Origin: Dehalococcoidia bacterium
Lineage (GTDB): Bacteria; Chloroflexota; Dehalococcoidia; Bin125
Assembly: GCA_965207365.1 (NCBI GenBank)
Contig: OZ242281.1
Span: 500,362 to 564,361 of the forward strand
DNA length: 64,000 nt
Direction of reading: 5' to 3'
Below the pieces are notes generated by a model. That model had not been told where the DNA came from, ran no database searches, and saw only the letters and a program-made list of their open reading frames with translations. The position numbers and the translations under genes are program-made. Positions 810 to 25,727 of the stretch are shown piece by piece. Position 1 is the stretch's first letter. Each line of letters opens with the position of its first letter.

Positions 810-2482
810 TTCGACTCCTCCTCCACCTGAGCGGTGTTCACCGGTCGTGGCTCACTGACGCCATTGAGTCCGTTCTCCCGGCGCAAACTGTTCTCGATGT
901 GCTCACTATGCGATATCGACTTCTGGCCGCGGAACAGGGGCACCATGAGCGAAATCTCGAACTCGATAGCTTCGCGCACGGCCTGAGCCTGTACCGCCGC
1001 CTTCTCCGCCACCTTGCGCACGCCCCGCTGACCACCAACCAATGAGAACAGGATCGCCGGAGCGGTGATCGCGGCTGCCACGATCAACGCGGTTTGGTAG
1101 CCCGCGATGATCGCGCCGGGCGAATCGCTGGCGACATCATTGGCCGCAGCGAAGGAGAGACCGACAGATGCGTAAACCGCGACCGCGATCGCGCCTCCCA
1201 CGGCGTTGCCTATCGTGCGGGCGGTGGTTTGGGCGGCGGAGGCGGTACCCAAACGCTCAGGCGGCACTGCGGACATGATCACCGCGGTATTGGGCGAGCT
1301 GAAGATGGAGGTGCCGATGCCTAGCAGCAGCATCCGTAGGCCGAAATCGACTGGCGACGTGTTCGCGTCGGTCATCGCCAGCAACGCCAGTGCCCCGCAG
1401 ACCATCATCATCCCGACCGTGGTCAGCGGGCGTGAACCCAGACGGTCGGAGAGACGACCCGAAATCGGCGAGACGACGAGCATCGCCAGTGGCATCGGCA
1501 CCATCATGAAGGCGGCGTCGAGGGTGCTGAACTCGCGTCCATCGATGAGCAGGAAGTAACCCAGATAGAGCGATGCGCTCATGCCCATGAACTGCAAGAT
1601 CGCGGCGAGAATGCCGAAACTGAAACCGCGCCCCTTGAACAGGGCCAGATCGACTACTGGCGAGGACGTGCGTCGCTCGACGATGATGAAAAGCACGGTG
1701 AAGATTACGCCGACGGCGAAGAGGGTCAGAATCAGCAGCGAGGTCCAGCCGGCGCTGCTGCCGCGGTTGATGCCGAAGGTGATGCATCCGAGCAGCCCGA
1801 ACAGCAGCACCGCACCGGGGATGTCGAGCCCGCGCGGTCGTTGCTCGCTCGGTGCGTCAACCAGCAGCCGCCAGGCGAGAAACACGCCCACGAGACCGAA
1901 GGGCACGCGCGCCCAGAAGATCGCTCGCCAGTCAAAGAGTTCAATCAGGATCCCCCCAAGCGGCGCGCCGATCGCAACCCCTGCACCGACGGTAGAGACC
2001 ATCAATCCCAGCCCGGTGCCGCGCTTAGAAGGCGGAAAGGAAGCAGCGATGATCGCGGCGCCATTGGCCATTGTCATTGAGGAGCCGATGGCTTGCAGGA
2101 TGCGGGTGCCGATCAGTTCCTCAAGCGAACCGCTGATAGCCGAGAGTCCGGTCGCCAGCGTGAACACGCCGAACCCGGCTGCGTAGATCATCTTGCGGCC
2201 GTAAACGTCGCCGAGCCGGCCCATAGTCAGCGAGAGGCCGGTGCTGACGACGATGAAGGAAAGAGCCACCCAGATCACATCGGAGGTGGAGCGGTCGAAC
2301 TCGTCCTCAAGGGTCGGCAGGGCGACGTTCGTGATCGAGTTGTCAACCACGCCCAGGAATGTGCCGACGCAAACAACAATCGCGGCGACCCAGTAGTAAG
2401 GAATCGGCCCAAGCGACGGCCCGCTGACCAGCGGACGATCATCCTCAACCTGCTGGCCTCCGGCGCCATTCCTCTGCACCAT
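806..2482 (-). CDS. MFS transporter, DHA2 (EmrB/QacA, 14-TMS) drug:H+ antiporter family
   Basis: The 558-aa ORF has about 14 predicted hydrophobic helices and MFS signature stretches (GRLGDVYGRK, the LGSRP region). Confidence 0.85.
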   Translation of the reverse strand: MVQRNGAGGQQVEDDRPLVSGPSLGPIPYYWVAAIVVCVGTFLGVVDNSITNVALPTLEDEFDRSTSDVIWVALSFIVVSTGLSLTMGRLGDVYGRKMIYAAGFGVFTLATGLSAISGSLEELIGTRILQAIGSSMTMANGAAIIAASFPPSKRGTGLGLMVSTVGAGVAIGAPLGGILIELFDWRAIFWARVPFGLVGVFLAWRLLVDAPSEQRPRGLDIPGAVLLFGLLGCITFGINRGSSAGWTSLLILTLFAVGVIFTVLFIIVERRTSSPVVDLALFKGRGFSFGILAAILQFMGMSASLYLGYFLLIDGREFSTLDAAFMMVPMPLAMLVVSPISGRLSDRLGSRPLTTVGMMMVCGALALLAMTDANTSPVDFGLRMLLLGIGTSIFSSPNTAVIMSAVPPERLGTASAAQTTARTIGNAVGGAIAVAVYASVGLSFAAANDVASDSPGAIIAGYQTALIVAAAITAPAILFSLVGGQRGVRKVAEKAAVQAQAVREAIEFEISLMVPLFRGQKSISHSEHIENSLRRENGLNGVSEPRPVNTAQVEEESK

Positions 2483-2574
2483 CGCCGCCTCTTCACAGAC
2501 ACGTCAGAAGCCGTTCCAGACGCGCCGCAGGCTCAGTTTAGATGGTCAGTTCGGCTGGACGAACTAACTGCGTT

Positions 2575-2715
2575 GCGCTCGAGACCTCCCCCGTTGGGGG
2601 ATGCGCCCCGAAGGGGCGGAGGGGGCCCGCCGGAGACTCCGTTCAGCGCCCCACGAGGGCCCCCTCAGTCGCTCCGCGACAGCTCCCCCATTGGGGGAGC
2701 TCTTGGATGCCGCTC
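2575..2715. repeat. GC-rich multi-hairpin intergenic repeat (family B)
   Basis: Nested short palindromes ctcccccgttggggga, gcgccccgaaggggcg, gagggggcc..ggccccctc and ctcccccattgggggag. A related unit occurs at 4365-4460. Confidence 0.5.
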
Positions 2716-2740
2716 AGCCCAACGCTCTAGACTCACCCAC

Positions 2741-3793
2741 ATGACCACCAAGACCCACACTCTCACCGACGAACTCTCCGCGATCGACTGGTGCTACGAG
2801 CAGGGCTGGACCGACGGCCTTCCGGTCGTCCCGCCTGCCCGTGAGCGAGTTGAACGTTTCCTCATCGCCGCCGGACGCCCTCCTGAGGAAATCGTCGCTC
2901 GGCATCCTGCCACCGGACGCGAATGCAGCGTCCAATCGGCCGCTGTCAATGCGGTCATGGCGGGCTGCCTGCCGCAATACTTCCCAACCGTGCTGGCTGC
3001 GCTCGAGGGTCTGAATGAAGACGCCTACAACTTCCACGGTTCGACCGCCAGCACCGGAGGCTCAGCGCCCGTGGTGATCATCTCCGGAGATATCCGCGAC
3101 GAAATCGGGATGAACGCCAGTGTCAACGTGTTCGGTCCTGGAAACCGCGCCAACGCGACCATCGGACGGGCGATGCGCCTGGTGATCATGAACATCTTCC
3201 AGATGATTCCTGGCATCTCCGATCGCTCGACGACCGGCTGGCCCGGAAAGTACGGCTGTTGCATCGCCGAGAACATCCTCAATAGCCCCTGGGAGCCGCT
3301 GCACGTGTCGCTCGATTTCCCACCCGAGGTCTCGACCGCCACCGTCTTCGCCGCCTCCGGCTTCTACAACGTCGAGAATCACTACACCAGCGACCCCGAA
3401 CTCCTGCTCGACACCTTCGCCGACGCCATGGCCTCGCTGGGCGCACTGACCGATGGACAGTCGCTGGTCGTGATGTCGCCGGAGCACGCGCAGATCGCGG
3501 CCTCGAACGGGATGTCCAAACAGGACGTGCAGGCATACCTCTTCGAGCACGCCAGCCGTGATCCCGAAGAAATGCTGAGCAAGGGCAAATGGCCCGCCGG
3601 GCGCCCAGGCGACGGACTCGCCGAAGGCGAGCGTGGCAATGGCGCGTTTCGCCGAGGTCGCACCCCCGACGACATCCTGCTCGTCGTCGCTGGCGGCGAG
3701 GCTGGCGGACACTCGGCCTTCCTGCCCTCGTGGAGTCGCGGACGCAACTCCATCTATCAGACCAAGGCGATCGGCGTCTGTCTCGATTGCTGA
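2741..3793 (+). CDS. hypothetical protein (about 350 aa), probably co-transcribed with the downstream UGSC selenoprotein
   Basis: The long ORF 2093..3793 has an R-rich, non-protein-like N-terminus. The start was chosen at ATG 2741 (MTTKTHTL...) just after the family-B repeat. A 37-bp gap with GGAGG separates it from the next gene. No family was recognised. Confidence 0.55.
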   Translation: MTTKTHTLTDELSAIDWCYEQGWTDGLPVVPPARERVERFLIAAGRPPEEIVARHPATGRECSVQSAAVNAVMAGCLPQYFPTVLAALEGLNEDAYNFHGSTASTGGSAPVVIISGDIRDEIGMNASVNVFGPGNRANATIGRAMRLVIMNIFQMIPGISDRSTTGWPGKYGCCIAENILNSPWEPLHVSLDFPPEVSTATVFAASGFYNVENHYTSDPELLLDTFADAMASLGALTDGQSLVVMSPEHAQIAASNGMSKQDVQAYLFEHASRDPEEMLSKGKWPAGRPGDGLAEGERGNGAFRRGRTPDDILLVVAGGEAGGHSAFLPSWSRGRNSIYQTKAIGVCLDC

Positions 3794-3829
3794 CCGTCCA
3801 GAACAAACTCGACCAAGACGGAGGCCATC

Positions 3830-4357
3830 ATGTCGCTCGTACTCTTCGACCCCACCGGCGAGCCCACGCCGACCGGCTTCTGCGCCGCGCCCAGGCTGAC
3901 TTCAGTCGAGGGCCTGCGCATCGGCATCTTCTCCAACGGGAAGGTCAACGCCGACAAGCTGCTGCGTTACACCGCCGAGGTCTTCGAGCAACAGGCAAAC
4001 TGCAACGTCGTGATCGACTCCGGCAAGCGCAACGCCAGCCGCATCGCTGAGCCACAGGTGCTGGAGCGAATCGCCAACGATGTCGATTTCCTGATCACCG
4101 CGGTGGGTGATTGAGGCTCCTGCTCAACGTGCAGTGTGCACGACGGCATCACCTTCGAGCAGTACGGCAAGCCCGGCCTGGTCCTCTGCACCCACCCATT
4201 CGACCCCACCGGCCGAATGATCGCCAAAACCCTGGGAATGCCCGACTTCAGGTACGCACTCGTCGATCACCCAATCGGAAGCGCCGGAATCGAAGGCCTC
4301 CAGGCCCGCGCAATGGACGCCTATGACCAGGGCAAGCTAATCCTGCTCGGTGCCTGA
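3830..4357 (+). CDS. UGSC family selenoprotein (in-frame UGA read as selenocysteine)
   Basis: ORFs 3830..4114 and 4136..4357 are in the same frame and separated only by TGA at 4112-4114. Read-through translation gives ...ITAVGD-U-GSCSTCSVHDGITFEQYGK..., the Sec-Gly-Ser-Cys motif that names the family. The second ORF begins with GTG rather than ATG. A hairpin follows the TGA. Confidence 0.7.
4120..4161 (+). promoter_or_regulatory. candidate bacterial SECIS-like stem-loop immediately 3' of the UGA
   Basis: ctgctc (4120-4125) pairs with gagcag (4156-4161), enclosing a perfect 6-bp-stem hairpin cgtgca-gtg-tgcacg (4128-4142). It starts 5 nt after the TGA. Confidence 0.35.
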
Positions 4358-4364
4358 TTCCAAA

Positions 4365-4460
4365 GAGCTCCCCCGTCGGGTGTGCTGTCCAGAAGCGAAC
4401 CTTCCCAAGAGCTCCCCCCTCTGGGGGAGCTGTCCCGTAGGGACTGAGGGGGCTCCCGGC
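4365..4460. repeat. GC-rich hairpin repeat (family B)
   Basis: gagctcccccctctgggggagctg and gggactgagggggctccc hairpins, similar in style to 2575-2715. Together they bracket the two-gene selenoprotein module. Confidence 0.45.
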
Positions 4461-4535
4461 ACGGCGTGTGAGGGAACAACTGCCTTCGTAAGCCTGTTGT
4501 CCACTCCAAACAACCCACTATCCCTTCCCAGTCCC

Positions 4536-4645
4536 CGCTTTACGCGGGGACCTGCTCCCTCCCAGCCCCTTCACATACCAATGAGTCTGCTTTTGGCTGG
4601 GCCCCAGACCGAGCGGGTCCCCGCGTGAAGCGGGGACTGGAATTA
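4536..4645. repeat. inverted pair of family-C hairpin units (ccagtccccgcttcacgcggggacc)
   Basis: ccagtccccgctttacgcggggacctgctccc at 4536 and its reverse complement gggtccccgcgtgaagcggggactgg at 4605-4645. The same unit recurs at 40085/40232 and 57400/63910. Confidence 0.6.
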
Positions 4646-16031: not shown

Positions 16032-16349
16032 TCAGCCTCCGCCGCGATGGGCTTTCATCATGAAGCGTTCGATCAGCGACTCCATCGCCTCCTCCGATCC
16101 TGCCGTGAAGACGAAGTAGTGCTCGTCCATCTTGGTTGGCAGTTGCGGGTGCATCGAGCGCTGCTCGGTCCGCCAGAGGACCGACCAGCCGTCACCCGAC
16201 ATCGCGCCGTCGGGCTGTACCACGCCATCAGGATCGGTCGCGCCTGGCGACGGTGGATCCACGTCGGACGCTCCGAGCTGTTCCAGGTACTGGCGCAGCA
16301 GCCAGATCGGCATGGCGCGCAGCGTGATCTCCCTGACTGCTCGCGACAT
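16032..16349 (-). CDS. hypothetical protein
   Basis: ORF 16032..16451. An internal Met (MSRAVREI...) is preferred as the start. No family recognised. Confidence 0.3.
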   Translation of the reverse strand: MSRAVREITLRAMPIWLLRQYLEQLGASDVDPPSPGATDPDGVVQPDGAMSGDGWSVLWRTEQRSMHPQLPTKMDEHYFVFTAGSEEAMESLIERFMMKAHRGGG

Positions 16350-16467
16350 GGCAAGAATCCCTTCGAATATCCGTGATAACCGCGTTACATTACCTCGTTT
16401 TGATGTATCGTTTCGCTTCATGGGCAACACCGCCCGCGGTCGCGGGGCCACAGTTCAGGAGGAAAGC

Positions 16468-18465
16468 ATGAGCGAGCGTTCCTATTGGCAACGGATGAGT
16501 CGGAAACGGATGAGCCGTCGCGGCATTCTGAGCGCCTCGGCTCGCGCCGGAGTTGGCGCGGCCGGCCTGGCCCTGGTGGGTTGCGGCGACGACGATGACG
16601 ACGGTCAGTCCGTCGCCCAGGTCCAGCAGCAGCAACAGGCCATGCAGCAGCAGGCCCAAGACCAGGCCATGCAGCAACAACAGCAGCAGGCCATGCAGCA
16701 GGACCAGCAACAGCAGGCCCAGCAGCAGGCGATGCAGCAGCAGGCCCAGGAACAGTCGAGCCAGGAACAGGCCGATCAACAGGCTGCGCAACAGCAGGCC
16801 ATGGTCGCCGAGGGCAAGAAGTACGGCGGCTCGATCATCGAGCAGTCGGCCAACGTCTACGAGACTTACGACGCGCAGCGAACAGTCGCGTCGCCGGTGC
16901 TCCAGGTCCTTGCCAACGTGCAGTCGAAGCTGCTGCGCTTCGAGAATCCCAACACCGGTGTCCTCACCGGCGACCTCGCAGAAGGATGGGAACTGCCCGA
17001 CGCCACCACGATCGTGTTGCACATGCGTGGCGGTGTGAACTGGCACGACGCCGGCCCTGGCGCCGACCATCCATCAGCCGCGCCCGGTCGCGCGCTGACG
17101 CCCGCCGACATCGCCTGGAACATCGATCGACAGCGCAACAAGGTACTCGAGAGCGGCGAGGAAGCCAGCAACTTCGGTCGCAGCGCGTACTGGGGCGGCG
17201 TCGGCTCGATGGACTATGACGACGTCAGCCTCACGCTGAATCTGGCCGAGGCGGACGCGACCTTTGTTCAGGGCCTGGCCAACGAGTTCAACCTGATGAA
17301 CCAGCCGGAACTCGTCGGCGGCACCGAGGACCAGTACACGGAAGTGGACGCCTCCAAGGTCATCGGCACCGGCCCGTACATCCTCACCCGGTGGGATCCC
17401 GGTGAGGGCATCTCGGCAGTCAAGAACCCGGACTTCTACGCGCTGCCCGACAAGCCGTATCTTGACGCCAGGGTCTGGGTGCAGACGTTCCAGGACCCCA
17501 ATGCGTACCGGATCGCGTTCGAGCAGAAGCAGGTCGACTTCATGAGCGACCCGGACCCGAACACGACCCTCGCGATCCACGACAGCCTGCAGGATGAGAC
17601 GTATCTCACCTTCCAGGGCGTCGCCAACACCGTGGCGATCTTCACACCGTCGAACAAGGCGCCGTGGAACGACTTGCGCCTGACACGAGCCATCGACCTG
17701 GCCATCAACCGGCGCCAGTTGATTCAGCAGTTGCACAACGGTCTGGGCAAGGTCTCAGGGCCGGTCACCTGGATGCAGGAAGCCTGGGCCATCCCACAGG
17801 AAGACCTCGAGACTTACCCCGGATACCGAATCGACAAGGACCAGGACGTCGAGGAAGCGCGCGCGCTGTGGAACGCCGCCGGCGGTCCCGAGCTCGGCCA
17901 GATCGACTGGGTCACGTCCGAGCTATGGGCCTCACGCGCGGCCTGGTCGGCGACGCCAGGCATCATTGCCGAGATGTTCAACCAGGCCTTCGACACCGAC
18001 CAGTTCAACGGCATCACCAAGCCGTACCTGGAAATCATCCCGTCCTGGATCGCCAAGGACTTCGATCCGTTCTTCAGTTGGATTCCGAACATCGAAATCC
18101 CCGACGCGCGGGCCGACATGATCGGTGCATTCACCACCGACGCCGGCTCGAACTACTGGGAGATCTCGGATCCGTACATCGACGACACGTTGAATGCGGC
18201 CAAGCAGGAACTCGACTACGAGAAGGCCTACCAGATGGTTCGGGAAGTCCAGGAGTATGTGATGGAGCGCGGCCAGTACGGGCGCAGCATCTGTTACAAC
18301 TACATCTACCCGGCCATTCGCTACAACTACAACCATCCGCAGTTGTCCAGTCCCGAAGAGGGTTGGAACTTCCTGCCCTACAGCCTGAACTCTGTTGAGC
18401 AGTGGGTCGACCTCGATGATCCGTCAGCCGAAGGCCGCCAGCCGACCGCTCCGGTACCTCTCTGA
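16468..18465 (+). CDS. ABC transporter substrate-binding lipoprotein, family 5 (DppA/OppA-like), with twin-arginine signal, lipobox and a Gln-rich low-complexity linker
   Basis: AGGAGG lies 6 nt upstream of ATG 16468. The protein has an SRRGIL Tat motif and an LVGC lipobox, followed by DDDDDG and a roughly 60-aa Q-rich stretch with repeated QQQAMQQ (DNA 16618-16800). The remainder is SBP-5-like. The ORF-track N-terminal extension from 16132 was rejected. Confidence 0.85.
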   Translation: MSERSYWQRMSRKRMSRRGILSASARAGVGAAGLALVGCGDDDDDGQSVAQVQQQQQAMQQQAQDQAMQQQQQQAMQQDQQQQAQQQAMQQQAQEQSSQEQADQQAAQQQAMVAEGKKYGGSIIEQSANVYETYDAQRTVASPVLQVLANVQSKLLRFENPNTGVLTGDLAEGWELPDATTIVLHMRGGVNWHDAGPGADHPSAAPGRALTPADIAWNIDRQRNKVLESGEEASNFGRSAYWGGVGSMDYDDVSLTLNLAEADATFVQGLANEFNLMNQPELVGGTEDQYTEVDASKVIGTGPYILTRWDPGEGISAVKNPDFYALPDKPYLDARVWVQTFQDPNAYRIAFEQKQVDFMSDPDPNTTLAIHDSLQDETYLTFQGVANTVAIFTPSNKAPWNDLRLTRAIDLAINRRQLIQQLHNGLGKVSGPVTWMQEAWAIPQEDLETYPGYRIDKDQDVEEARALWNAAGGPELGQIDWVTSELWASRAAWSATPGIIAEMFNQAFDTDQFNGITKPYLEIIPSWIAKDFDPFFSWIPNIEIPDARADMIGAFTTDAGSNYWEISDPYIDDTLNAAKQELDYEKAYQMVREVQEYVMERGQYGRSICYNYIYPAIRYNYNHPQLSSPEEGWNFLPYSLNSVEQWVDLDDPSAEGRQPTAPVPL

Positions 18466-18587
18466 TCGACTGAAGCTCAAGGACGACGGCATAGGTTGCC
18501 ATTCGTCCGTCGCCGATTCGCCCCGCGGCGTATCGGCGGCGGACTGTAGCCTCTGCCTGAAGCATCAACGGATAACCGGGCTGCAGG

Positions 18588-19547
18588 ATGCAGGGCTACA
18601 TCATCCGCAGAATCATCGGCGCGATCTTCGTCGTGTTTCTGGCCGGTACCTTCTCGTTCTTCGCCATCCGCATCTTGCCCGGCGACGCTGCGTCGGCCGC
18701 ATTGGGCCTTGACGCTGGATCGGCCTCCGCTGAGCAGATCGCCGAGCGACGCGCCGAGTACGGCCTGGACAAGCCGCTCGCGACCCAGTACGGAAACTGG
18801 CTCTGGGACACGATCCGGCTCGACCTGGGCAACTCCTTCACCAATCGCGCCAATTCCGTCTGGTACGAGATCGGTCGGTCGCTGCCCTACTCGATCGAAC
18901 TTGGCGTCCTGATCGTCATCGTCGGCTTTGCCGTCGCGTTCCCGGTGGGACTATTGTCGGCGATCTTCCAGGACCGTTGGATTGACTACACCCTGAGGTC
19001 GCTGGCCATTCTGGCACTGGCCGCGCCCGTCTTCTGGACGGCGGCCATCGCTTCGCTGTTTGTCCTCGAGTGGGAACTGTTCCTGATCGACGTGATTGGA
19101 CAACCACACATCTGGGAGAACCCGCAAGACGCGATCACCTGGTACCTGATCCCGATGCTCGCCGGCGGCTTCGCCGGCACCGCCGCGACGATGCGGCTGC
19201 TGCGTTCGCAGATGCTCGAGGTGATGCGCCAGGACTACGTCCGAACCGCGCGAGCCAAGGGCCTGCGCGAATCGGTCGTGATCATTCGTCACGCGCTGCG
19301 CAACGCCCTGCTGCCGGTCCTGACGGTGATGGGCGTGACCGTCGCCACGATCATCGGCTCGCAAGTCATCCTCGAGAACATGTTCAACATCCCCGGGATT
19401 GGCAACCTGATTATCAGTTCGCTGTTCGAGCGCGACAATCCCGTCTTCCAGTCCGTCATCGTCCTGATTGCCGTCTTCGTTGTCTTCACCAATCTGGTCG
19501 TCGACATCCTCTACGGCATCATCGACCCGCGCATTCGATTGTCATAG
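18588..19547 (+). CDS. ABC transporter permease (DppB/OppB-like)
   Basis: 319 aa, multi-TM, with a binding-protein-dependent transport EAA-like region. Confidence 0.85.
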   Translation: MQGYIIRRIIGAIFVVFLAGTFSFFAIRILPGDAASAALGLDAGSASAEQIAERRAEYGLDKPLATQYGNWLWDTIRLDLGNSFTNRANSVWYEIGRSLPYSIELGVLIVIVGFAVAFPVGLLSAIFQDRWIDYTLRSLAILALAAPVFWTAAIASLFVLEWELFLIDVIGQPHIWENPQDAITWYLIPMLAGGFAGTAATMRLLRSQMLEVMRQDYVRTARAKGLRESVVIIRHALRNALLPVLTVMGVTVATIIGSQVILENMFNIPGIGNLIISSLFERDNPVFQSVIVLIAVFVVFTNLVVDILYGIIDPRIRLS

Positions 19548-19556
19548 GAGAGCGCT

Positions 19557-20537
19557 GTGACTGAAGCACGCGGCGAGGTCATCGTCCCCGAGGGCGACCC
19601 CAACCTGCTCGTCAGGCTTGGTTCCGGTCTGCGTAGCGTGCTTCGCTTCATCCGTGGCAAGCCGCTCGGTGGCATCGGCCTGATCATTGCGGTCGCATTC
19701 ATCCTGATCGCCATTTTCGCCAATCAGATTCAGCGCCACGACCAGGACCAGATTTTCGACGCCCCGAACCCCGACTACAAAGCCAATCCGACTACCCTCG
19801 AGCTCGCCCGCAATCCCGACATCGGTTCGCCTGTGGTTGTTGAGCAGTTCGCCGTGCCCTCCGGCAAACATTGGTTTGGGACCGACAAGTTCGGTCGCGA
19901 CATCTGGTCGCAGGTCATCCATGGTGCACGACTCAGCCTGATTGTGGGACTCGGCGCGTCAGTGATCGCCGTAATCGGTGGACTCGTCATCGGGATGATC
20001 TCGGCCTATTACGCAGGAATCCTGGATCTCTTGATTCAGCGCATCGTCGACATGCTCCAGGCGATCCCCTTCCTGGTGCTGGTGCTCGTCTTCACGCAGA
20101 TCTCCGAGCCGAGAGTGAGTTATGTCGTCTTATGGCTCGGAGTTGCCGGACTGGCGATTACCACACGACTGATCCGATCAGCCGTCTTCGCCGTGCGCGA
20201 GAGCGAATTCGTGCTCGCCGCCCGCGTCGTTGGCGCGAGCGACCTCAGGATCATGGTGCGCCACGTGCTGCCCAATGTCGTCGCGGTGCTCATCATCGCC
20301 TTCAGCATCGGCATCGGAGCCTACATTCTGGCCGAGGCGGCAATCTCCTTCCTCGGCGCAGGACCACAGGGCGTCGCGAGTTGGGGCAAGATGGTTCAGG
20401 CCGGACGCGGCTCGCTCGACCTGCATCCATGGCAGACCGTCTTTGCCGGTGGAGCGATCATGATGATCGTGCTGGGCTTCAACCTGCTGGGAGACGCCTT
20501 GCGTGATGTCCTCGACCCACGCCTGCGCGGCGCTTGA
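19557..20537 (+). CDS. ABC transporter permease (DppC/OppC-like)
   Basis: 326 aa. Its end, NLLGDALRDVLDPRLRG, is typical of DppC-type permeases. No ATPase gene follows. Confidence 0.85.
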   Translation: MTEARGEVIVPEGDPNLLVRLGSGLRSVLRFIRGKPLGGIGLIIAVAFILIAIFANQIQRHDQDQIFDAPNPDYKANPTTLELARNPDIGSPVVVEQFAVPSGKHWFGTDKFGRDIWSQVIHGARLSLIVGLGASVIAVIGGLVIGMISAYYAGILDLLIQRIVDMLQAIPFLVLVLVFTQISEPRVSYVVLWLGVAGLAITTRLIRSAVFAVRESEFVLAARVVGASDLRIMVRHVLPNVVAVLIIAFSIGIGAYILAEAAISFLGAGPQGVASWGKMVQAGRGSLDLHPWQTVFAGGAIMMIVLGFNLLGDALRDVLDPRLRGA

Positions 20538-20608: not shown

Positions 20609-21097
20609 TTACCGCTGCGCTCCTGGAGGATCAATCCTGTTCAACACGATCCATTCGATCCGCTGCTCGCCTAACTGCTGTTCCTCCGCTGCTTCGCGCA
20701 TCGCTGTCGCTGCGTCTTGCCGTCCGGCGCCCCAACCCGCGCGGAATCCGACCGCCCAAGGTTGTTCGCCGCCCAAACCTTCGTCAATCAGCAGTTCACC
20801 CAGACGCTCAGCGTACGCACGCCCATTCTCGCGTTCCATCGCCTCAGTCCATACGTCGCTGTACTGTTCCTCCAACTTGACGGGATCATTGCGCAGATTC
20901 GGTACTCGGTCATCCAGCTTGATGGCTCCGCTCAGGAAGGCAATCAAGACGGGAACAGCTACGCCCAGCAGCACGCCCGCGAATGTGTGAACACCTATCA
21001 AATCGCGCTTTCGACGCCAGCCCGACTCGGCGGCATCGGGACGCGACCACCCGCTCAACCGAGGCGTGCGACGGCTCATTTGAGCAACTCGATCCAC
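20609..21097 (-). CDS. single-pass membrane protein, member 1 of a 6-gene paralog array (GWxxGWxDA family, unknown function)
   Basis: Arg/Trp-rich N-tail, one TM helix, and a C-domain with VGFRAGWGAGRQDAATAMREAA. Confidence 0.55.
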   Translation of the reverse strand: MDRVAQMSRRTPRLSGWSRPDAAESGWRRKRDLIGVHTFAGVLLGVAVPVLIAFLSGAIKLDDRVPNLRNDPVKLEEQYSDVWTEAMERENGRAYAERLGELLIDEGLGGEQPWAVGFRAGWGAGRQDAATAMREAAEEQQLGEQRIEWIVLNRIDPPGAQR

Positions 21098-21600
21098 TGA
21101 GTGCCGTCCGCCGCCGACCGGAGCTGCAGAATCGCCTCATTCGACGAATCGAGGATTAAGAGATTCCAGCCCTGTCGATAACCTGCTTGATAGCCTGATC
21201 GCTCGCTTCGGCCAGCGAGCAACTCTTCCAACGCCTGTTCAGCTTGCATCCGTCCCAGCAATCTCCCCTGTCTAGTCCCCCACGTGAACGCTGCGCTTCG
21301 ATTGCCAGCATCGTTTTCGGACGGCGACTCGCTCAGGCCGTGATACGCCAGATCACCTCCCGAGCCCTGGTCCAGCGCGAATGCACTGACCGCTACCGCC
21401 GTCGAAAGCATCGCGCCGACGAGGAACGCAATCGCCGAGTGTCGTACCAGATCGATCCGCCAGAGCCTTCTGAAGCGCTCCACCTGATCCAACGCGAACG
21501 CACTGACCACTACCACCGTCGAACGCACCGCGCTGACGAGGAACGCAACCGCTGAGTGTCGTATCAGTTCGATCCGCCAGAGCCTTCTGAAGCGCTCCAT
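21076..21600 (-). CDS. paralog array member 2, carrying an in-frame tandem duplication of its N-tail+TM module
   Basis: MERFRRLWRIELIRHSAVAFLVSAV...ALDQV is followed directly by ERFRRLWRIDLVRHSAIAFLVGAM...ALDQG. The C-domain has YQAGYRQGWNLL. It ends TQWIELLK, like member 6. Confidence 0.55.
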   Translation of the reverse strand: MERFRRLWRIELIRHSAVAFLVSAVRSTVVVVSAFALDQVERFRRLWRIDLVRHSAIAFLVGAMLSTAVAVSAFALDQGSGGDLAYHGLSESPSENDAGNRSAAFTWGTRQGRLLGRMQAEQALEELLAGRSERSGYQAGYRQGWNLLILDSSNEAILQLRSAADGTQWIELLK

Positions 21601-21615
21601 CCGCTCTCTGACCGC

Positions 21616-22074
21616 CTACCTCCGGGTCATCTCTTCCAGAACCCGGAATTCAGTGTAGCTAGCGGGCAGGTCCAGTTCCTCAGCTGCTTCCTCCATCGCA
21701 TCCAGGGCGTCGTTCCAACCTTGAATCCAACCTGTCGCGAATTGCTGTGCGTAGGCGGAGTCAACCCCTGTTCCATCGTTGACGATCTCCGCTCCCAGAT
21801 GCTGGACTTCGCCATATGGCAACCCATCGGCATAGCCCTCCGCTTCGACCGCTGCGTAGGCCTCTTCATAGGCCGCCAGCTCGGCTCGCTTGAGATCGTC
21901 TGAGGTGCGCAGATTCATCGGATCAAGCGTCGCGCCGATCAGTGCCGCCATCGCTACGCCGAGCACGACCGCGAACATCGTGTGCCGGCCAATCGGGTCG
22001 TAGCCGCGTTTCCACCAGACACGCTCACGCTCGCCCTGACCCCAGCCTTCCAGCGATCCACGACGGTCCGTCAT
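21616..22074 (-). CDS. paralog array member 3
   Basis: RERVWWKRGYDP N-tail, TM helix, and a C-domain with FATGWIQGWNDALDAMEEAA. Confidence 0.55.
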   Translation of the reverse strand: MTDRRGSLEGWGQGERERVWWKRGYDPIGRHTMFAVVLGVAMAALIGATLDPMNLRTSDDLKRAELAAYEEAYAAVEAEGYADGLPYGEVQHLGAEIVNDGTGVDSAYAQQFATGWIQGWNDALDAMEEAAEELDLPASYTEFRVLEEMTRR

Positions 22075-22466
22075 CGGCGTAGGTCTTCCCAGGACTCGAA
22101 CGCCGACTCGACCTCAAGTTTGTTGCGCTTGGCCTCGTTCAGCGCCGTGTCGATGGCGTCGTTCCAGGAGTAGTCATACGCGGTTTGGAATCCCACAAGG
22201 GGATCGCCCGATGCCAGCAGTTCCGGCAGCGCCAGCGCGGCACGACCAGCGCCGTCGAGCCGTCCTCGCTCAAACGCCGCCTCATAGCCATCGATTCGCC
22301 CCTCTCGCGTCCCACGCACCTCAGCTGAGGCAATCTCTTCCGCCGTGACCTGGTCAAGCACCGAGATCAGCCAACCAATCGCCGCCGTCACCGCCAAAGC
22401 AATCAGAAACGCAAGCGCGACTTGACGAGGCAGGTCGTAGCGCCACCAAGAGCGAACGATAGACAT
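22071..22466 (-). CDS. paralog array member 4
   Basis: MSIVRSWWRYDLPRQ N-tail, TM helix, and AYDYSWNDAIDTALNEA. It overlaps member 3 by 4 bp. Confidence 0.55.
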   Translation of the reverse strand: MSIVRSWWRYDLPRQVALAFLIALAVTAAIGWLISVLDQVTAEEIASAEVRGTREGRIDGYEAAFERGRLDGAGRAALALPELLASGDPLVGFQTAYDYSWNDAIDTALNEAKRNKLEVESAFESWEDLRR

Positions 22467-22510
22467 TGAGTCAGCCTATCCAGCAACGACTGGACAATCG
22501 ACGAGTTTCT

Positions 22511-22996
22511 TTACGGCCTCGCCTGACGCTGCAAGCCTGCGTTGAGCGTCTGCAACTCCAGTGAATCCTCGGTGGCGCCGGCATCGATCGAAGCGGCACG
22601 CATCGCGTCGAGCGCATCATCCCAGCCGTCCGACCATCCCACGCGAAACCCGTTCGCCCAATCCGACTCGGCGCCAACCTGTTGGTCGGACAGTATCCTC
22701 GCAATCTCGATCGTGATGAATTCCTCCTGAGCATCACGAACGGCATCTCCAATGGTCGCATAGAAGGTCGACTGCAAAGCCTCGTAGCGAATCTTGTCAA
22801 TCTGCCCTTCCTGGGACACAGTTGTCTCTCCAATGACCGAAATCACGAGCCAGCCAAGGATGATGGCTGTGACCGCGCCAATCAGGAACCAGGTCAAACT
22901 CGGTCGAATGCGTTCCCGCGGCGGTAAGCGCCGACCCAGCCTCATGGGTTCTCGAGGTCCGTAGGGAGGAGAAGGCTGCGACGTTTCTGTGGTCAT
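22511..22996 (-). CDS. paralog array member 5
   Basis: RLPPRERIRPSLTWF N-tail, TM helix, and GFRVGWSDGWDDALDAMRAA. Confidence 0.55.
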   Translation of the reverse strand: MTTETSQPSPPYGPREPMRLGRRLPPRERIRPSLTWFLIGAVTAIILGWLVISVIGETTVSQEGQIDKIRYEALQSTFYATIGDAVRDAQEEFITIEIARILSDQQVGAESDWANGFRVGWSDGWDDALDAMRAASIDAGATEDSLELQTLNAGLQRQARP

Positions 22997-23403
22997 CGCA
23001 GCAGCTCAATCCACTGCGTGTGCTCTTCCCCGGCGAGCAGTTGTCGCGGCAAGCGCCGTGCGAGCGTGTTGACAGCATCATTCCAGGCATACTCGTACGC
23101 CCGTCGGTAGGCATCGTCGGCGTCGCCGCTGGAGAGTTGAGCTTCGACCTCATCCTCGGCCAGGCGAGGGGCCGCTTCCATGGCGGACTGTCGCGCCTCC
23201 AACTCGGCCAGGTATCGACCGCGGGCGGCGCCGCCAGCAACAGCGTCCTCGCGCACATCCTCAGGAATAGCGTCTGGGAGCTGCAAGGAAACTGCGCCAA
23301 CAATCGCAACCAGCATGCCCGCAACAAGGAAGCCCAACAGGGCAACGCGGAGATTATGAGGCCACGATGGAACAGAGAAGGCTCCCAAACGTCTGAACCT
23401 CAT
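22993..23403 (-). CDS. paralog array member 6
   Basis: Start set at the internal Met (MRFRRLGAF...) of ORF 22993..23673. It has a TM helix, AYEYAWNDAVNTLA, and ends TQWIELLR. Confidence 0.5.
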   Translation of the reverse strand: MRFRRLGAFSVPSWPHNLRVALLGFLVAGMLVAIVGAVSLQLPDAIPEDVREDAVAGGAARGRYLAELEARQSAMEAAPRLAEDEVEAQLSSGDADDAYRRAYEYAWNDAVNTLARRLPRQLLAGEEHTQWIELLR

Positions 23404-23434: not shown

Positions 23435-23706
23435 TCAGCCGCCGGCGACTGGTGGGAAGATGTCCAGTTCGCTTTCGGGATTGACCCGGCTATCGAGACC
23501 GTCGATATGTCGGATGTCGCGGCCGTCGACCATGATCGCGACGAAACGGCGCACCGTGCCGTCCTCGTCGAAGAGCTGATCGTGCAACCCCTCATACTCG
23601 CAAGCGAGCCGTTCAAGAATGCCCTTGATCGTGTCCGGCGGATCAGACAGATCAACGCTGCGACCACCGACAAGCGGTCGCAGCGTTGCGTAGAAGCGGA
23701 TCTGCA
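23435..23706 (-). CDS. MoaD/ThiS-family ubiquitin-like sulfur-carrier protein (C-terminal GG)
   Basis: MQIRFYATLRPLVGG...IFPPVAGG. It is about 90 aa, ends in Gly-Gly, and lies immediately downstream of the AOR gene. Confidence 0.65.
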
Positions 23707-23714
23707 TAACTGTG

Positions 23715-23846: not shown

Positions 23847-25727
23847 CTACGAGATGATCTCGAGCTCGCGCAGCTTGGACTCGCCCACGACGCCGTTGTC
23901 CCAACCGCGAGCGTCGTAGTACTGCTCTTTCATCTGGTCGAGTTCGCAGACGTGACCTTCGGCCGGTCCGGTCGCCGGCTCGTTGAGGAAGCGATCGGGC
24001 AGCGAGTCATCGCTGCCGTCAAATCCTGCGAGGTTGTTGTAGTAGCGCTCGAGGTTGTAGATGCGCTCGCCAGCGACCATCACGTCTTCCTCGGACATGG
24101 GGAGGCCGACGACCGTCTCGTACAACGCGGCGTACTCGGGCGCGCCAACCGCGAAGGCTGAGAACTTGCACAGGTCGAGCGAGTCTGAGAATGCATGCAG
24201 GTCCTGGAAGATCTTCAGCAGCGGACCCTTGCCGTCCCATTCGAGCGGGTCGGTCTTGACCGGAATACCGAGCAGCTCGGAGGCGGGCGTGTAGCCACGC
24301 AGGTGGCAGGCGCCGCGGTTCGAGGTCGCGTAGCCGAGCCCCTCGCCCTTGATCCCGCGCGGGTCGTAAGCCGGTACGGCCTGTCCCTTAACGGTCATCG
24401 AAATCTCCGGGTGACCCCAGGAGGCTGCGGCCTTGGCCGGGCCTTGGCCCAGCGCCTGGCCGATCGACCCAGAGGCGTGCGCAATGTCTTCTGCAGCCTG
24501 GACCATACCTGCGCCGTCGCCCCAGTCGAGCGGCGTGTCGACGTAGCCCCGTTCCGAGGCTTCCATGTACATCGAGATGGCGTTGCCAATTTCAATCGCG
24601 TCCATGCCGTAGTCGTTGCATTGGTCGATGATCTTGGCGATGACAGCCGGATCGTCGTTGCCGCAGTTCGCGCCCAGCGACCAGGCCGGCTCGTACTCAA
24701 ACGACTCCATCTTCAGGCCGGCGTGAACGCCTTCGGTGATCTCAACTTCCTTCTTGCAAGCCACCGGACAGGCGTGACAGGTCGGTTCGGCGGTCAGAAA
24801 GTCGGAGCGCATCGTCTCGCCCGAGACCGCGTCTGCCGCTTCAGGGGTCGTCTGCGTCATCTGCGAGTTCTTCGTGCCCAGCCCACCGATCGAGTTGACG
24901 GCGTTCATCAGCACGTTAGTCCCGAAGGCCGAGAGCGCACCAGAGCCGTCCTTGAGCGATCCGTCATCGTTGACCGAGGACGGCGCCGTCACCGGCGACT
25001 CCATGATCAGCTTCAGGTGAGCGCCCTGCGCCGCGCGGAACTTCTGCCGCGCTTCGCCCTGTTCTGGTCGCCAACGACCGTCACGCGTGCCTCGCACGAC
25101 CACACACTTGAGGTTCTTCGACCCAGCCACCGCGCCCGTGCCGCCGCGACCGGCTGCGCGGTCGTCCTCGTTGAGGATCGAGGCGAACAGCACGCCGTTC
25201 TCGCCGGCCTGGCCGATCGACATGACCGAGACATCGGTCTTGTTGCCGCTGTCTGAACCGAAGTGCTTGACGGTGTCGTGGATACCCATCCCCCAGAGGT
25301 GAGAGGCATCCTTGATCTCGACTTCGCCGTTCTCGACTTCGAGATAGACGGGCGCCGCCGCTTTGCCGGTAATCAGAATGGCGTCGAAGCCGGCCCAGCG
25401 GAGTCGAGCCGCTGACCAACCGCCCATGTGCGAGTCGGTCACGGTTCCTGTCAATGGCGACTTGGTCACGAACGCGAGGCGTCCCGACATCGTCACCTCA
25501 GAACCGGTCATCGGCCCGTTGACCAGGGCCAGCATGTTGTCCGGAGACATCGCGGCGGTATTCGGTCCGTTGTCGAGCAGGTACTTCACGCCCAGCCCGC
25601 GAGCGCCGATGTACTTTCGCGCGTCGTCTTCATTGACGCCCTCGTAAGTGACTGTGCGGTCGCTCAGATTGATCCGCGCCACGCGGTCAGCAAATCCCCC
25701 AAGTGCCATGATCGTTCCCTTCATCAA
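23847..25727 (-). CDS. aldehyde:ferredoxin oxidoreductase (tungsten-containing AOR family)
   Basis: 626 aa with the AOR N-terminal domain and catalytic domain blocks (EPTCHACPVACKK Fe-S cysteine region, GLGYATSNRGACHLRG). Confidence 0.85.
   Translation of the reverse strand: MMKGTIMALGGFADRVARINLSDRTVTYEGVNEDDARKYIGARGLGVKYLLDNGPNTAAMSPDNMLALVNGPMTGSEVTMSGRLAFVTKSPLTGTVTDSHMGGWSAARLRWAGFDAILITGKAAAPVYLEVENGEVEIKDASHLWGMGIHDTVKHFGSDSGNKTDVSVMSIGQAGENGVLFASILNEDDRAAGRGGTGAVAGSKNLKCVVVRGTRDGRWRPEQGEARQKFRAAQGAHLKLIMESPVTAPSSVNDDGSLKDGSGALSAFGTNVLMNAVNSIGGLGTKNSQMTQTTPEAADAVSGETMRSDFLTAEPTCHACPVACKKEVEITEGVHAGLKMESFEYEPAWSLGANCGNDDPAVIAKIIDQCNDYGMDAIEIGNAISMYMEASERGYVDTPLDWGDGAGMVQAAEDIAHASGSIGQALGQGPAKAAASWGHPEISMTVKGQAVPAYDPRGIKGEGLGYATSNRGACHLRGYTPASELLGIPVKTDPLEWDGKGPLLKIFQDLHAFSDSLDLCKFSAFAVGAPEYAALYETVVGLPMSEEDVMVAGERIYNLERYYNNLAGFDGSDDSLPDRFLNEPATGPAEGHVCELDQMKEQYYDARGWDNGVVGESKLRELEIIS

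What the first reader, a model, noticed from the sequence alone, without database searches (positions are those of the whole stretch)
20609..23403. Tandem array of six diverged paralogous single-pass membrane protein genes with a conserved GWxxGWxDA C-terminal motif
Six consecutive minus-strand genes (20609-21097, 21076-21600, 21616-22074, 22071-22466, 22511-22996, 22993-23403) are tightly packed, with 4-bp overlaps at 22071-22074 and 22993-22996 and a 22-bp overlap at 21076-21097. This looks like one operon.

All six proteins share an architecture:
- a short Arg/Trp-rich cytoplasmic N-tail (RRxxRxW, RFRRLWRI, RVWWKRGYDP, RSWWRYDLPRQ);
- one TM helix;
- a roughly 80-100-aa extracytoplasmic domain centred on a (Y/F)xxGWxxGWxDAxxxxxEA motif (AYEYAWNDAVNTLA, AYDYSWNDAIDTALNEA, FATGWIQGWNDALDAMEEAA, GFRVGWSDGWDDALDAMRAA, VGFRAGWGAGRQDAATAMREAA, YQAGYRQGWNLL).

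Members 2 and 6 additionally end in TQWIELL(K/R). Pairwise identity is low outside the motif, which suggests an old, diversifying array rather than a recent amplification. I could not assign the domain to a named family. Tandemly diversified membrane-anchored paralogues of this kind are often receptor, anti-sigma, immunity or envelope-stress modules.
Basis: seen in the sequence. Interest (0 to 1): 0.75.

Follow-up and report, generated by a model that had tools for sequence, protein, structure and literature searches.

The report
Triplicated membrane-protein gene pair in AOR operon
The six small genes are real, but they are three old copies of a two-gene module for paired single-pass membrane proteins of unknown function, found only in one group of Chloroflexota, where it sits inside a tungsten aldehyde-oxidoreductase operon.

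Summary
Six tightly packed minus-strand genes (20609-23403) encode paralogous proteins with a single transmembrane (TM) helix and no match in Pfam, NCBIfam, PADLOC, PHROGs or PDB.

The structure of the array needs correcting. It is not six equivalent paralogues. It has two subtypes: t2 (F, D, B) and t1 (E, C, A). They alternate strictly as three t2-t1 pairs, and each pair is joined by an ATGA stop/start overlap.

In 18 related Dehalococcoidia/Chloroflexi loci the same module occurs one to three times, always after an aldehyde:ferredoxin oxidoreductase (AOR) gene and a ThiS/MoaD-like gene. Four outgroup operons have AOR, ThiS and MoaD_arch with no pair, so the array is a lineage-specific insertion between two MoaD-like genes.

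The t1 and t2 trees mirror each other (r = 0.94). dN/dS is 0.12-0.42. The duplications are therefore old and the genes are under purifying selection.

Both proteins are predicted to be N-in/C-out, with an acidic helical-hairpin ectodomain.

My best reading is three cognate t2:t1 membrane heterodimers co-expressed with AOR. Their function is unknown. Nothing supports an anti-sigma, receptor, immunity or defence role.

The parts
23847..25727 (-). Aldehyde:ferredoxin oxidoreductase (AOR), first gene of the operon
   Evidence: Pfam AFOR_N 2e-72 and AFOR_C 5e-125. An orthologue lies upstream of the pair array in 17 of the 18 related loci; L018 is cut at that end.
23435..23707 (-). ThiS/MoaD-like small protein ending in GG, 31 bp upstream of F
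   Evidence: Pfam ThiS 1.3e-13. It is 100 % identical to the L002 orthologue. In L001, L008 and L013 its stop overlaps the t2 start by 4 bp, and in L017 by 1 bp.
22993..23403 (-). F, the t2 member of pair alpha (136 aa, ends TQWIELLR)
   Evidence: ORF and TM helix. Start supported by P0025 and L002. t2 HMM score 185 bits. AF2 model: TM helix 14-40, helices 48-92, 95-117 and short C-terminal helices 121-125 and 132-135.
22511..22996 (-). E, the t1 member of pair alpha (161 aa), ATGA-coupled to F
   Evidence: Falls in the t1 alpha clade.
22071..22466 (-). D, the t2 member of pair beta (131 aa)
   Evidence: Helix 1 is a seven-rung GX3 ladder, GTREGRIDGYEAAFERGRLDGAGRA (read from the sequence). 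Weak FliH hit, E = 0.07.
21616..22074 (-). C, the t1 member of pair beta (152 aa), ATGA-coupled to D
   Evidence: AF2 model: pLDDT 73, TM helix 28-49, helices 57-99, 107-133 and 141-148.
21076..21600 (-). B, the t2 member of pair gamma. 174 aa as the full ORF, or 135 aa if translation starts at the GTG at 21483, as in orthologues. Ends TQWIELLK.
21366..21599 (.). 117-bp tandem duplication inside B that repeats the N-tail and TM helix
   Evidence: TRF: period 117, 2.0 copies, 89 % identity. 104 of 117 bases are identical. Copy 1 has an Arg inside the TM helix. Copy 2 matches the orthologues.
20609..21079 (-). A, the t1 member of pair gamma (156 aa from the ATG at 21079), ATGA-coupled to B
   Evidence: (P0002 and P0005 start MSRRTPRL/MSGRTPRL).
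16468..20537 (+). ABC transporter genes (SBP_bac_5 lipoprotein and two permeases), convergent with the array. They lie between the array and the MoaD_arch-like gene and are absent from the single-pair loci L001, L008 and L013.
   Evidence: Pfam SBP_bac_5. The same arrangement occurs in L016 and L018. These genes are absent from L001.
16032..16349 (-). MoaD_arch-like gene, the second MoaD-related gene of the ancestral operon
   Evidence: blastp 133 bits to the PF09189-annotated L001 protein. Sequence ends HRGGG. No direct Pfam hit.

Best explanation
The region holds three anciently diverged copies (alpha = F/E, beta = D/C, gamma = B/A) of a two-gene module. The module is specific to one lineage of Dehalococcoidia-class Chloroflexota.

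**Expression (inferred).** Each module encodes a t2 protein followed by a paralogous t1 protein whose ATG overlaps the t2 stop codon (ATGA). The two are therefore probably made in equal amounts from one transcript that also carries AOR and a MoaD-like gene.

**Topology and fold (predicted).** Both proteins are bitopic. They have a short Arg/Trp-rich tail in the cytoplasm and one TM helix. Outside sits an acidic domain of roughly 80-100 aa built from two long antiparallel helices and a short C-terminal helix. Both long helices carry Gly/Ala/Ser at every fourth position. This flat face is of the kind that mediates tight helix-helix pairing in GX3-motif proteins.

**Mechanism (inferred).** Each t2 pairs with its cognate t1 through these ladders and the TM helices. 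This would give three distinct membrane-anchored heterodimers on the outer face of the cytoplasmic membrane.

**Origin (shown).** The module was inserted between the two MoaD-like genes of an ancestral AOR-ThiS-MoaD_arch operon. It was then duplicated, lost and moved as a unit.

**Function (unknown).** I consider an envelope-side structural or accessory complex, co-expressed with AOR but not part of its catalysis, the most likely role.
For: **Pair structure and coupling**
- There are two subtypes and they alternate strictly.
- All three junctions are ATGA overlaps.
- t1 and t2 are homologous.

**Conservation**
- Eighteen related loci carry (t2,t1) x 1-3. In 17 of them the array follows AOR-ThiS. 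L018 is cut before that position.
- The NJ trees of t1 and t2 show the same three clades.
- Mirror-tree r = 0.937, against a mean of 0.22 for within-locus partner shuffles. None of 2000 shuffles reached the observed value.
- dN/dS is 0.12-0.42.

**Insertion**
- Four outgroup operons have AOR-ThiS-MoaD_arch with a ThiS/MoaD_arch 4-bp overlap and no pair.
- L001 has AOR-ThiS-t2-t1-MoaD_arch.

**Topology**
- K+R counts in the 15 residues before and after the TM helix are 4.1 vs 1.4 for t1 and 3.3 vs 1.0 for t2. The N side is richer in 31 of 34 t1 and 31 of 35 t2 proteins.
- Mean ectodomain net charge is -11 for t1 and -4.8 for t2.

**Fold**
- Both AF2 models have the same layout of TM helix, long helix, motif helix and short C-terminal helix or helices. 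The motif helix has the highest pLDDT, 87-93.

**Small-residue ladder**
- In t2, small residues are conserved at positions 54, 58 ... 82 (eight rungs) and 98 ... 110 (four rungs). Lag-4 autocorrelation is 0.60 for t2 and 0.30 for t1.
- The weaker hits of the family profile are GYxxGY-repeat proteins that match Pfam Yae1_N.
- GX3 motifs mediate Yae1-Lto1 complex formation (PMC4523923).
Against: - Heterodimerisation is inferred, not tested. No multimer prediction was possible.
- AF2 confidence is only moderate (pLDDT 73-76, pTM about 0.35).
- Topology rests on the positive-inside rule alone.
- No family member reaches Pfam Yae1_N, even at E <= 1. The rungs are mostly Ala/Ser/Gly rather than Gly.
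- All pair-bearing genomes are fairly close relatives. AOR bit scores are 1054-1217 against 1287 for self. Conserved synteny is therefore weak evidence for a functional link.
- The loci were retrieved with the TQWIELL pattern, so arrays that lack such a t2 would have been missed.
- Nothing found here indicates what the complex does.
Confidence: 0.6

Rival explanations
1. The pairs are dedicated accessories of the tungsten AOR. They might tether AOR or the MoaD-like proteins to the membrane through the conserved cytoplasmic tails. Alternatively they might link cofactor maturation or metal supply to the envelope. Either role would explain why they sit between the two MoaD-like genes.
For: - Every locus that extends far enough has the array immediately after AOR-ThiS.
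- In L018 an extra pair follows MoaD_arch by 23 bp.
- The ThiS stop overlaps the t2 start in four loci.
- The N-tail motifs are conserved within clades: WRRxRDxIGRHT in t1 and RxLWRYDLxRQ in t2.
- In Aromatoleum the two MoaD-like genes of the aor operon are thought to be W-cofactor maturation factors (PMC6365974).
Against: - AOR-ThiS-MoaD_arch operons exist without the pair in related Chloroflexota.
- Archaeal-type AORs have been characterised as homodimers of one subunit (PMC6365974).
- The conserved bulk of the proteins is predicted to lie outside the cell, whereas the AOR sequence starts without a signal peptide.
- The proteins contain no Cys or His motifs for metal or cluster binding (from the sequences).
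- The proteins evolve much faster than AOR (dN/dS 0.12-0.42 against 0.085).
Confidence: 0.2
2. The hydrophobic segment is a cleaved signal peptide. The products would then be small secreted acidic helical proteins, still likely paired, rather than membrane-anchored ones.
For: - The hydrophobic segment is N-terminal and is preceded by Arg residues.
- B has AFA|LD after its hydrophobic segment (from the sequence).
- Several weak GY-repeat hits of the profile look like lipoproteins or signal-peptide proteins.
Against: - The hydrophobic stretches reach TM length: windows with hydropathy above 1.5 span about 28-31 residues. AF2 models them as helices of 22-27 residues.
- There is no consistent AXA site in the six proteins.
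- t1 tails of 30-35 residues with conserved motifs would be unusual for a signal-peptide n-region.
Confidence: 0.1
3. The array is an anti-sigma, receptor, immunity, envelope-stress or phage-defence/lysis module.
For: The single-pass, tandemly repeated architecture is also seen in such systems. A PHROG holin model hits F weakly (E = 0.11, TM region only).
Against: - No ECF sigma factor, kinase, toxin or bacteriocin gene is a conserved neighbour.
- The cytoplasmic tails are only 12-35 aa and contain no anti-sigma domain.
- There are no PADLOC hits and no relatives in 2.9 million viral contigs.
- The Sigma70_r4-like HTH fused to ThiS in L016 is a sporadic insertion, not a conserved feature.
Confidence: 0.05
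4. The ORFs are not real genes. They would be chance ORFs in GC-rich DNA.
For: - GC3 is 0.63-0.69, lower than in the neighbouring genes at 0.76-0.85.
- No family assignment was possible.
Against: - dN/dS is below 0.45 for all six genes.
- About 150 homologous proteins were found in independent assemblies.
- Start/stop coupling and gene lengths are conserved.
- The t1 and t2 trees are congruent.
Confidence: 0.01

Closest known systems
Yae1-Lto1 deca-GX3 adaptor pair (Pfam Yae1_N, PF09811) and the GX3 repeats of FliH
   Same: Two different proteins each carry a helix with small residues at every fourth position. In Yae1-Lto1 that motif drives heterodimer formation (PMC4523923). The family profile's weaker hits are proteins that match Yae1_N. 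D gives a weak FliH hit over its ladder.
   Different: - No member matches Yae1_N (0 of 49 at E <= 1).
- The rungs are Gly/Ala/Ser, arranged as 8 + 4 rather than ten Gly.
- The proteins are membrane-anchored with a predicted extracytoplasmic domain.
- They have no link to the cytosolic Fe-S cluster assembly (CIA) machinery or to flagella.
- The resemblance concerns how they might work, not family membership.
Adjacent bitopic partner pairs that form heterodimers (FtsB-FtsL/DivIC, PilN-PilO, ATP synthase b-b')
aor operon of Aromatoleum aromaticum (aorABCDE), as genomic context
   Same: An AOR gene is followed by two MoaD-like genes thought to serve W-cofactor maturation (PMC6365974). The outgroup Chloroflexota operons AOR-ThiS-MoaD_arch look analogous.
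   Different: No AorA or AorC subunits appear among the called genes next to AOR here. In this lineage the two MoaD-like genes are separated by 2-6 membrane-protein genes, and in the window also by an ABC transporter. I found no description of such an arrangement, though my literature search was limited.

Membership tests
Pfam Yae1_N / deca-GX3 proteins | Match to PF09811 at or near the gathering score | tested here: not met
   No hit for the six proteins at E <= 10. 0 of 49 family members hit at E <= 1.
Pfam Yae1_N / deca-GX3 proteins | About ten consecutive Gly-X3 repeats on one helix | tested here: inconclusive
   A period-4 ladder is present (8 + 4 rungs in t2; lag-4 autocorrelation 0.60). 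The rungs are G/A/S mixed and split over two helices.
Pfam Yae1_N / deca-GX3 proteins | Motif-dependent heterodimer of the two partners | not testable with these tools
   No multimer prediction was available. Indirect support only: ATGA coupling and mirror trees.
Single-pass anti-sigma factors | Adjacent ECF sigma factor gene | tested here: not met
   No Sigma70_r2/r4 protein is a conserved neighbour in the window or in the loci whose called genes were listed. The only r4-like HTH is a sporadic fusion in L016.
Single-pass anti-sigma factors | N-terminal cytoplasmic anti-sigma domain | tested here: not met
   The tails before the TM helix are about 12-35 aa, with no Pfam or NCBIfam match.
FliH | Match to FliH models above the cut-off | tested here: not met
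   Only D hits, E = 0.07, 12 bits against a cut-off of 293.
Phage holins / anti-phage defence systems | Match to PHROG or PADLOC models, or presence on viral contigs | tested here: not met
   PADLOC gave nothing. The best PHROG holin hit has E = 0.11. No relative was found in viral contigs.
Tungsten-type AOR operon (context) | AFOR_N and AFOR_C protein followed by a ThiS/MoaD-family gene | tested here: met
   for the window. for related loci.
Tungsten-type AOR operon (context) | Second MoaD-related gene (PF09189 MoaD_arch) | tested here: inconclusive
   The window ORF 16032-16451 has no direct Pfam hit. It scores 133 bits against the PF09189-annotated L001 protein.

The most novel reading that the evidence does not exclude
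The t2:t1 heterodimers are a previously unknown membrane component of tungsten-AOR biology in marine Chloroflexota. They might link AOR or its MoaD-like maturation proteins, through the conserved cytoplasmic tails, to an extracytoplasmic acidic helical bundle. That link could serve metal or cofactor supply, localisation, or sensing of the aldehyde substrate pool. The three co-evolved pairs would give three specificities.
Probability: 0.12. Interest if true: 0.75.

Novelty: new variant of a known kind. Interest (0 to 1): 0.45.

Why it matters
**What is new**
- It defines an unannotated protein family. About 60 clusters at 50 % identity were found among 1.84 billion representatives, and every hit that carries a source name comes from Chloroflexota.
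- The family has a clear organising rule: obligate t2-t1 pairs that co-duplicate and co-evolve.
- It has a recognisable structural principle: small-X3 ladders on a helical hairpin.
- It shows a conserved AOR-MoaD-MoaD_arch operon being split by an inserted membrane module whose copy number varies from one to three between related genomes.

**What follows**
- If the pairs prove to be linked to AOR function, that would be new for tungsten enzymes.
- If not, they remain a tidy natural system for studying how paralogous heterodimers keep partner specificity.
- Because the function is unknown and the lineage is narrow and uncultured, the immediate impact is modest.

Tried and rejected
- **Profile libraries.** Pfam, NCBIfam, PADLOC and PHROGs scans of the six proteins, and Pfam on 49 family members, gave nothing significant.
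- **Solved structures by sequence.** Profile searches found only chance matches.
- **Viral contigs.** No relatives.
- **Exact look-up of B (P0001).** Not on record, so the source record of the window was not recovered.
- **Consensus promoter and terminator scan.** It found nothing inside the operon. This is uninformative for this phylum.
- **Anti-sigma reading.** Rejected. The Sigma70_r4-like region fused to ThiS in L016 is sporadic. L012 has an equally long ORF and L010/L011 carry a different extension.
- **Two-peptide bacteriocin analogy (GxxxG peptides).** Considered from memory and rejected. The proteins are 130-160 aa, have N-terminal anchors, lack leader peptides, and have no transporter or immunity genes dedicated to them.
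- **Accessory role for the adjacent ABC transporter.** Rejected. The single-pair loci L001, L008 and L013 lack the transporter.
- **Direct heterodimer test.** Not possible.
Full report

ORF listing and translation confirm six minus-strand ORFs at 20609-23403. In transcription order I call them:
- F (22993-23403)
- E (22511-22996)
- D (22071-22466)
- C (21616-22074)
- B (21076-21600)
- A (20609-21097)

Each has the GC1 > GC2 pattern of coding DNA. Each has one strongly hydrophobic 19-residue window (Kyte-Doolittle 2.1-2.7) close to the N-terminus.

Paralogy is statistically sound.
- blastp gives A-C 1e-18, A-E 4e-9, D-B 8e-12 and D-F 1e-7. C-D at 2e-5 bridges the two groups.
- Profile-profile comparison of the two groups gives 90.8 % probability, E = 1.2e-6, over 114 columns from the TM helix to the C-terminus.
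- Against the orthologous genes of the closest relative found (L002, a Chloroflexi MAG), dN/dS is 0.12-0.42 for the six genes. It is 0.085 for the neighbouring AOR.

So these are real genes under purifying selection.

**2.

The six proteins fall into two subtypes.
- t1 comprises A, C and E. Its motif is G(F)xxGWxxGWxDAxxAM, followed by a C-terminal (Y)TE(F/W)xxL.
- t2 comprises B, D and F. Its motif is (A/G)YxY(A/S/G)WN(D)A. B and F end in TQWIELL(K/R).

In transcription order the types alternate strictly: t2-t1, t2-t1, t2-t1. Within each pair the t2 stop and the t1 start overlap as ATGA.

The 22-bp B/A overlap in the finding comes from using the longest ORF. The orthologues P0002, P0005 and L002 begin at the ATG at 21079, which gives the same ATGA junction. 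Between pairs there are short spacers of 44 and 15 bp.

B also carries a 117-bp tandem duplication (21366-21599, 89 % identity) that repeats its tail and TM helix.
- Orthologues are 135 aa and lack the duplication.
- The second copy, which starts with GTG, is the one that resembles the orthologues.
- The first copy has an Arg inside the hydrophobic stretch.

**3. Relatives and context**

*Family size and distribution.* Two word-indexed searches of 5.8 billion proteins returned 61 and 86 hits. All lack Pfam domains. Every hit with a source name comes from Chloroflexota MAGs and is called hypothetical.

An exhaustive HMMER search of 1.84 billion cluster representatives found only 100 proteins at E <= 1e-3. 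About 60 of them are clear family members. The family is therefore small and lineage-restricted.

*Related loci.* A scan of 185,579 species genomes with a t2 alignment found 14 loci, all in MAGs titled Dehalococcoidia or Chloroflexi. Four more loci came from exact-protein look-ups.

In every locus that extends far enough, the arrangement is AOR (AFOR_N/AFOR_C), then a ThiS/MoaD-like gene, then (t2,t1) repeated n times.

| Copies (n) | Loci |
|---|---|
| 1 | L001, L008, L013 |
| 2 | L003, L006, L007, L009, L012, L014, L015, L016, L017 |
| 3 | window, L002, L004, L005, L010, L011 |

L018 is cut at one end. It shows the end of an array and one further pair 23 bp downstream of MoaD_arch.

Signs of decay and recombination also occur.
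- L004 has a frameshifted t1.
- L007 has a t1 remnant.
- P0035 is an F/E chimera.

*Co-duplication.* Neighbour-joining trees of t1 and t2 have the same three clades (alpha F/E, beta D/C, gamma B/A), with each t2 next to the t1 of the matching clade. The correlation of the two distance matrices over 34 adjacent pairs is 0.937. Shuffling partners within loci gives a mean of 0.22, and none of 2000 shuffles reached the observed value. The pair is therefore the unit that duplicates, is lost and diverges. The three copies predate the split of these genomes.

*Outgroups.* Homologues of the ThiS/MoaD-like protein at 50-59 % identity sit in operons AOR-ThiS-MoaD_arch. There the last two genes overlap by 4 bp and no t2/t1 is present.

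In single-pair genomes the order is AOR-ThiS-t2-t1-MoaD_arch. ThiS overlaps t2 by 4 bp in L001, L008 and L013, and by 1 bp in L017. The module was therefore inserted exactly between the two MoaD-like genes of an older operon.

In the window an ABC transporter (16468-20537, plus strand) has additionally come to lie between the array and the MoaD_arch-like gene (16032-16349). The two CoA-transferase genes follow, as in L001.

An AOR gene followed by two MoaD-like putative W-cofactor maturation genes is known from Aromatoleum aromaticum (PMC6365974).

**4. Anatomy of the proteins**

*Topology.* The positive-inside rule points clearly to N-in/C-out.

| Measure | t1 | t2 |
|---|---|---|
| K+R in the 15 residues before the TM helix | 4.1 | 3.3 |
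| K+R in the 15 residues after the TM helix | 1.4 | 1.0 |
| Proteins with more K+R on the N side | 31 of 34 | 31 of 35 |
| Mean net charge of the C-domain | -11 | -4.8 |

*Fold.* AlphaFold2 with family alignments gives the same layout for C (t1, pLDDT 73) and F (t2, pLDDT 76). The motif helix has the highest confidence, 87-93.

- In t2, Gly/Ala/Ser are conserved at F positions 54, 58, 62 ... 82 (eight rungs on helix 1).
- They are also conserved at 98, 102, 106 and 110 (four rungs on helix 2).
- Lag-4 autocorrelation of small-residue frequency is 0.60 for t2 and 0.30 for t1, where the pattern is weaker.
- In helix 2 of all six proteins, read directly from the sequences, aromatic residues follow the rungs.

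This is the GX3-type ladder. The weaker hits of the family profile are GYxxGYxxGY-repeat proteins that match Pfam Yae1_N. D gives a sub-threshold FliH hit over its ladder. In Yae1-Lto1 the GX3 motifs are what hold the two different proteins together (PMC4523923).

**5. Most likely mechanism**

*Shown.*
- Paired, ATGA-overlapping genes.
- Homology between the partners.
- Co-duplication and co-divergence.
- Purifying selection.
- Insertion into, and tight packing within, an AOR operon.

*Predicted.*
- N-in/C-out bitopic topology.
- A helical-hairpin ectodomain with small-X3 ladders.

*Inferred.*
- Each t2 binds its cognate t1 through the ladders, and probably the TM helices. This would give three distinct heterodimers on the outer face of the membrane, produced together with AOR.

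What the heterodimers do is not revealed by any comparison made here. I rate a role outside AOR catalysis as more likely than a dedicated AOR role, for these reasons:
- The operon exists without the pair in outgroups.
- The conserved bulk of the proteins is predicted to be extracytoplasmic, whereas the AOR sequence starts without a signal peptide.
- The proteins contain no Cys or His motifs.

The AOR-accessory idea is kept as the main rival, because the conserved cytoplasmic tails and the position between two MoaD-like genes are suggestive.

**6. Alternatives considered**

- *Anti-sigma, receptor, immunity, envelope stress or defence.* No conserved sigma factor, kinase, toxin or defence neighbour was found. 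There is no anti-sigma domain, no PADLOC or PHROG match and no viral relative.
- *Cleaved signal peptides.* This is possible for some members but unlikely overall, given the TM-length hydrophobic segments and the long conserved tails.
- *Non-coding ORFs.* Excluded.

**7. Caveats**

- The related loci were retrieved with the TQWIELL pattern, so arrays without such a t2 are not sampled.
- All pair-bearing genomes are fairly close (AOR scores 1054-1217 bits against 1287 for self). Synteny alone is weak functional evidence.
- The AF2 models are of moderate confidence and are monomeric.
- The heterodimer model and the topology have not been tested.
- The source record of the window could not be retrieved. 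The Chloroflexota assignment rests on the closest relatives.

**8. Verdict**

This is an uncharacterised, lineage-specific family of paired bitopic membrane proteins. It has a GX3-like ladder, is present in three ancient copies, and is embedded in a tungsten-type AOR operon. It is a new variant of a known structural theme with unknown function, and of moderate interest.

Noticed in passing
window 21366-21599: A 117-bp tandem duplication inside gene B repeats the cytoplasmic tail and TM helix (89 % identity). Copy 1 keeps the ATG but has an Arg in the hydrophobic stretch. Copy 2 starts with GTG and matches the 135-aa orthologues. The full ORF would give a two-TM protein with conflicting topology signals.
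   Followed up: partly
P0035 (89 aa, from another assembly; corresponds to window 22511-23403): This protein joins the N-tail and TM helix of an F-type t2 to the C-terminal motif helix of an E-type t1. It looks like a deletion or recombination between the two genes of a pair.
   Followed up: no
L004 8387-8889; L007 10228-10590: The alpha t1 of L004 is split by a frameshift into two ORFs. L007 has a 47-bit t1 remnant after its second pair. Both look like decaying copies and show that the array is turning over.
   Followed up: no
L016 3052-4623 (L012 6249-7820 has the same ORF length); L010 and L011 5729-6505: In L016 the ThiS/MoaD-like ORF reads through its GG end into about 430 extra residues with a Sigma70_r4-like HTH. 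L012 carries an equally long ORF that was not scanned. In L010, and by matching coordinates L011, the extension is about 170 residues and hits DUF5678. These are sporadic insertions or fusions right at the ThiS/t2 junction.
   Followed up: partly
L018 5658-6920: An additional t2-t1 pair lies 23 bp downstream of the MoaD_arch gene, separate from the main array. The module can therefore relocate next to the other MoaD-like gene.
   Followed up: no
L019-L022 (outgroup loci), genes at about 2160-4580: These loci carry AOR-ThiS-MoaD_arch operons with a ThiS/MoaD_arch 4-bp overlap and no membrane pair. This is the likely ancestral state. It resembles aorB-aorD-aorE of Aromatoleum.
   Followed up: yes
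window 16468-18465, Gln-rich part 16612-16806: The SBP_bac_5 solute-binding protein has an RR-containing signal with a lipobox (LALVGC). A 65-residue linker follows that is rich in Gln, with Ala and Met (QQQQQAMQQQAQDQAM...).
   Followed up: no
L001 14015-16411: A CBASS-like defence cluster (SMODS, bacterial HORMA, AAA ATPase, SAVED) lies about 5 kb downstream of the pair in this relative. It is not present in the corresponding part of the window.
   Followed up: no
window 20609-23403 compared with flanks: GC3 of the six genes (0.63-0.69) is clearly lower than that of AOR and the ABC transporter genes (0.76-0.85). This is compatible with weaker codon adaptation, faster evolution or a different origin.
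   Followed up: no
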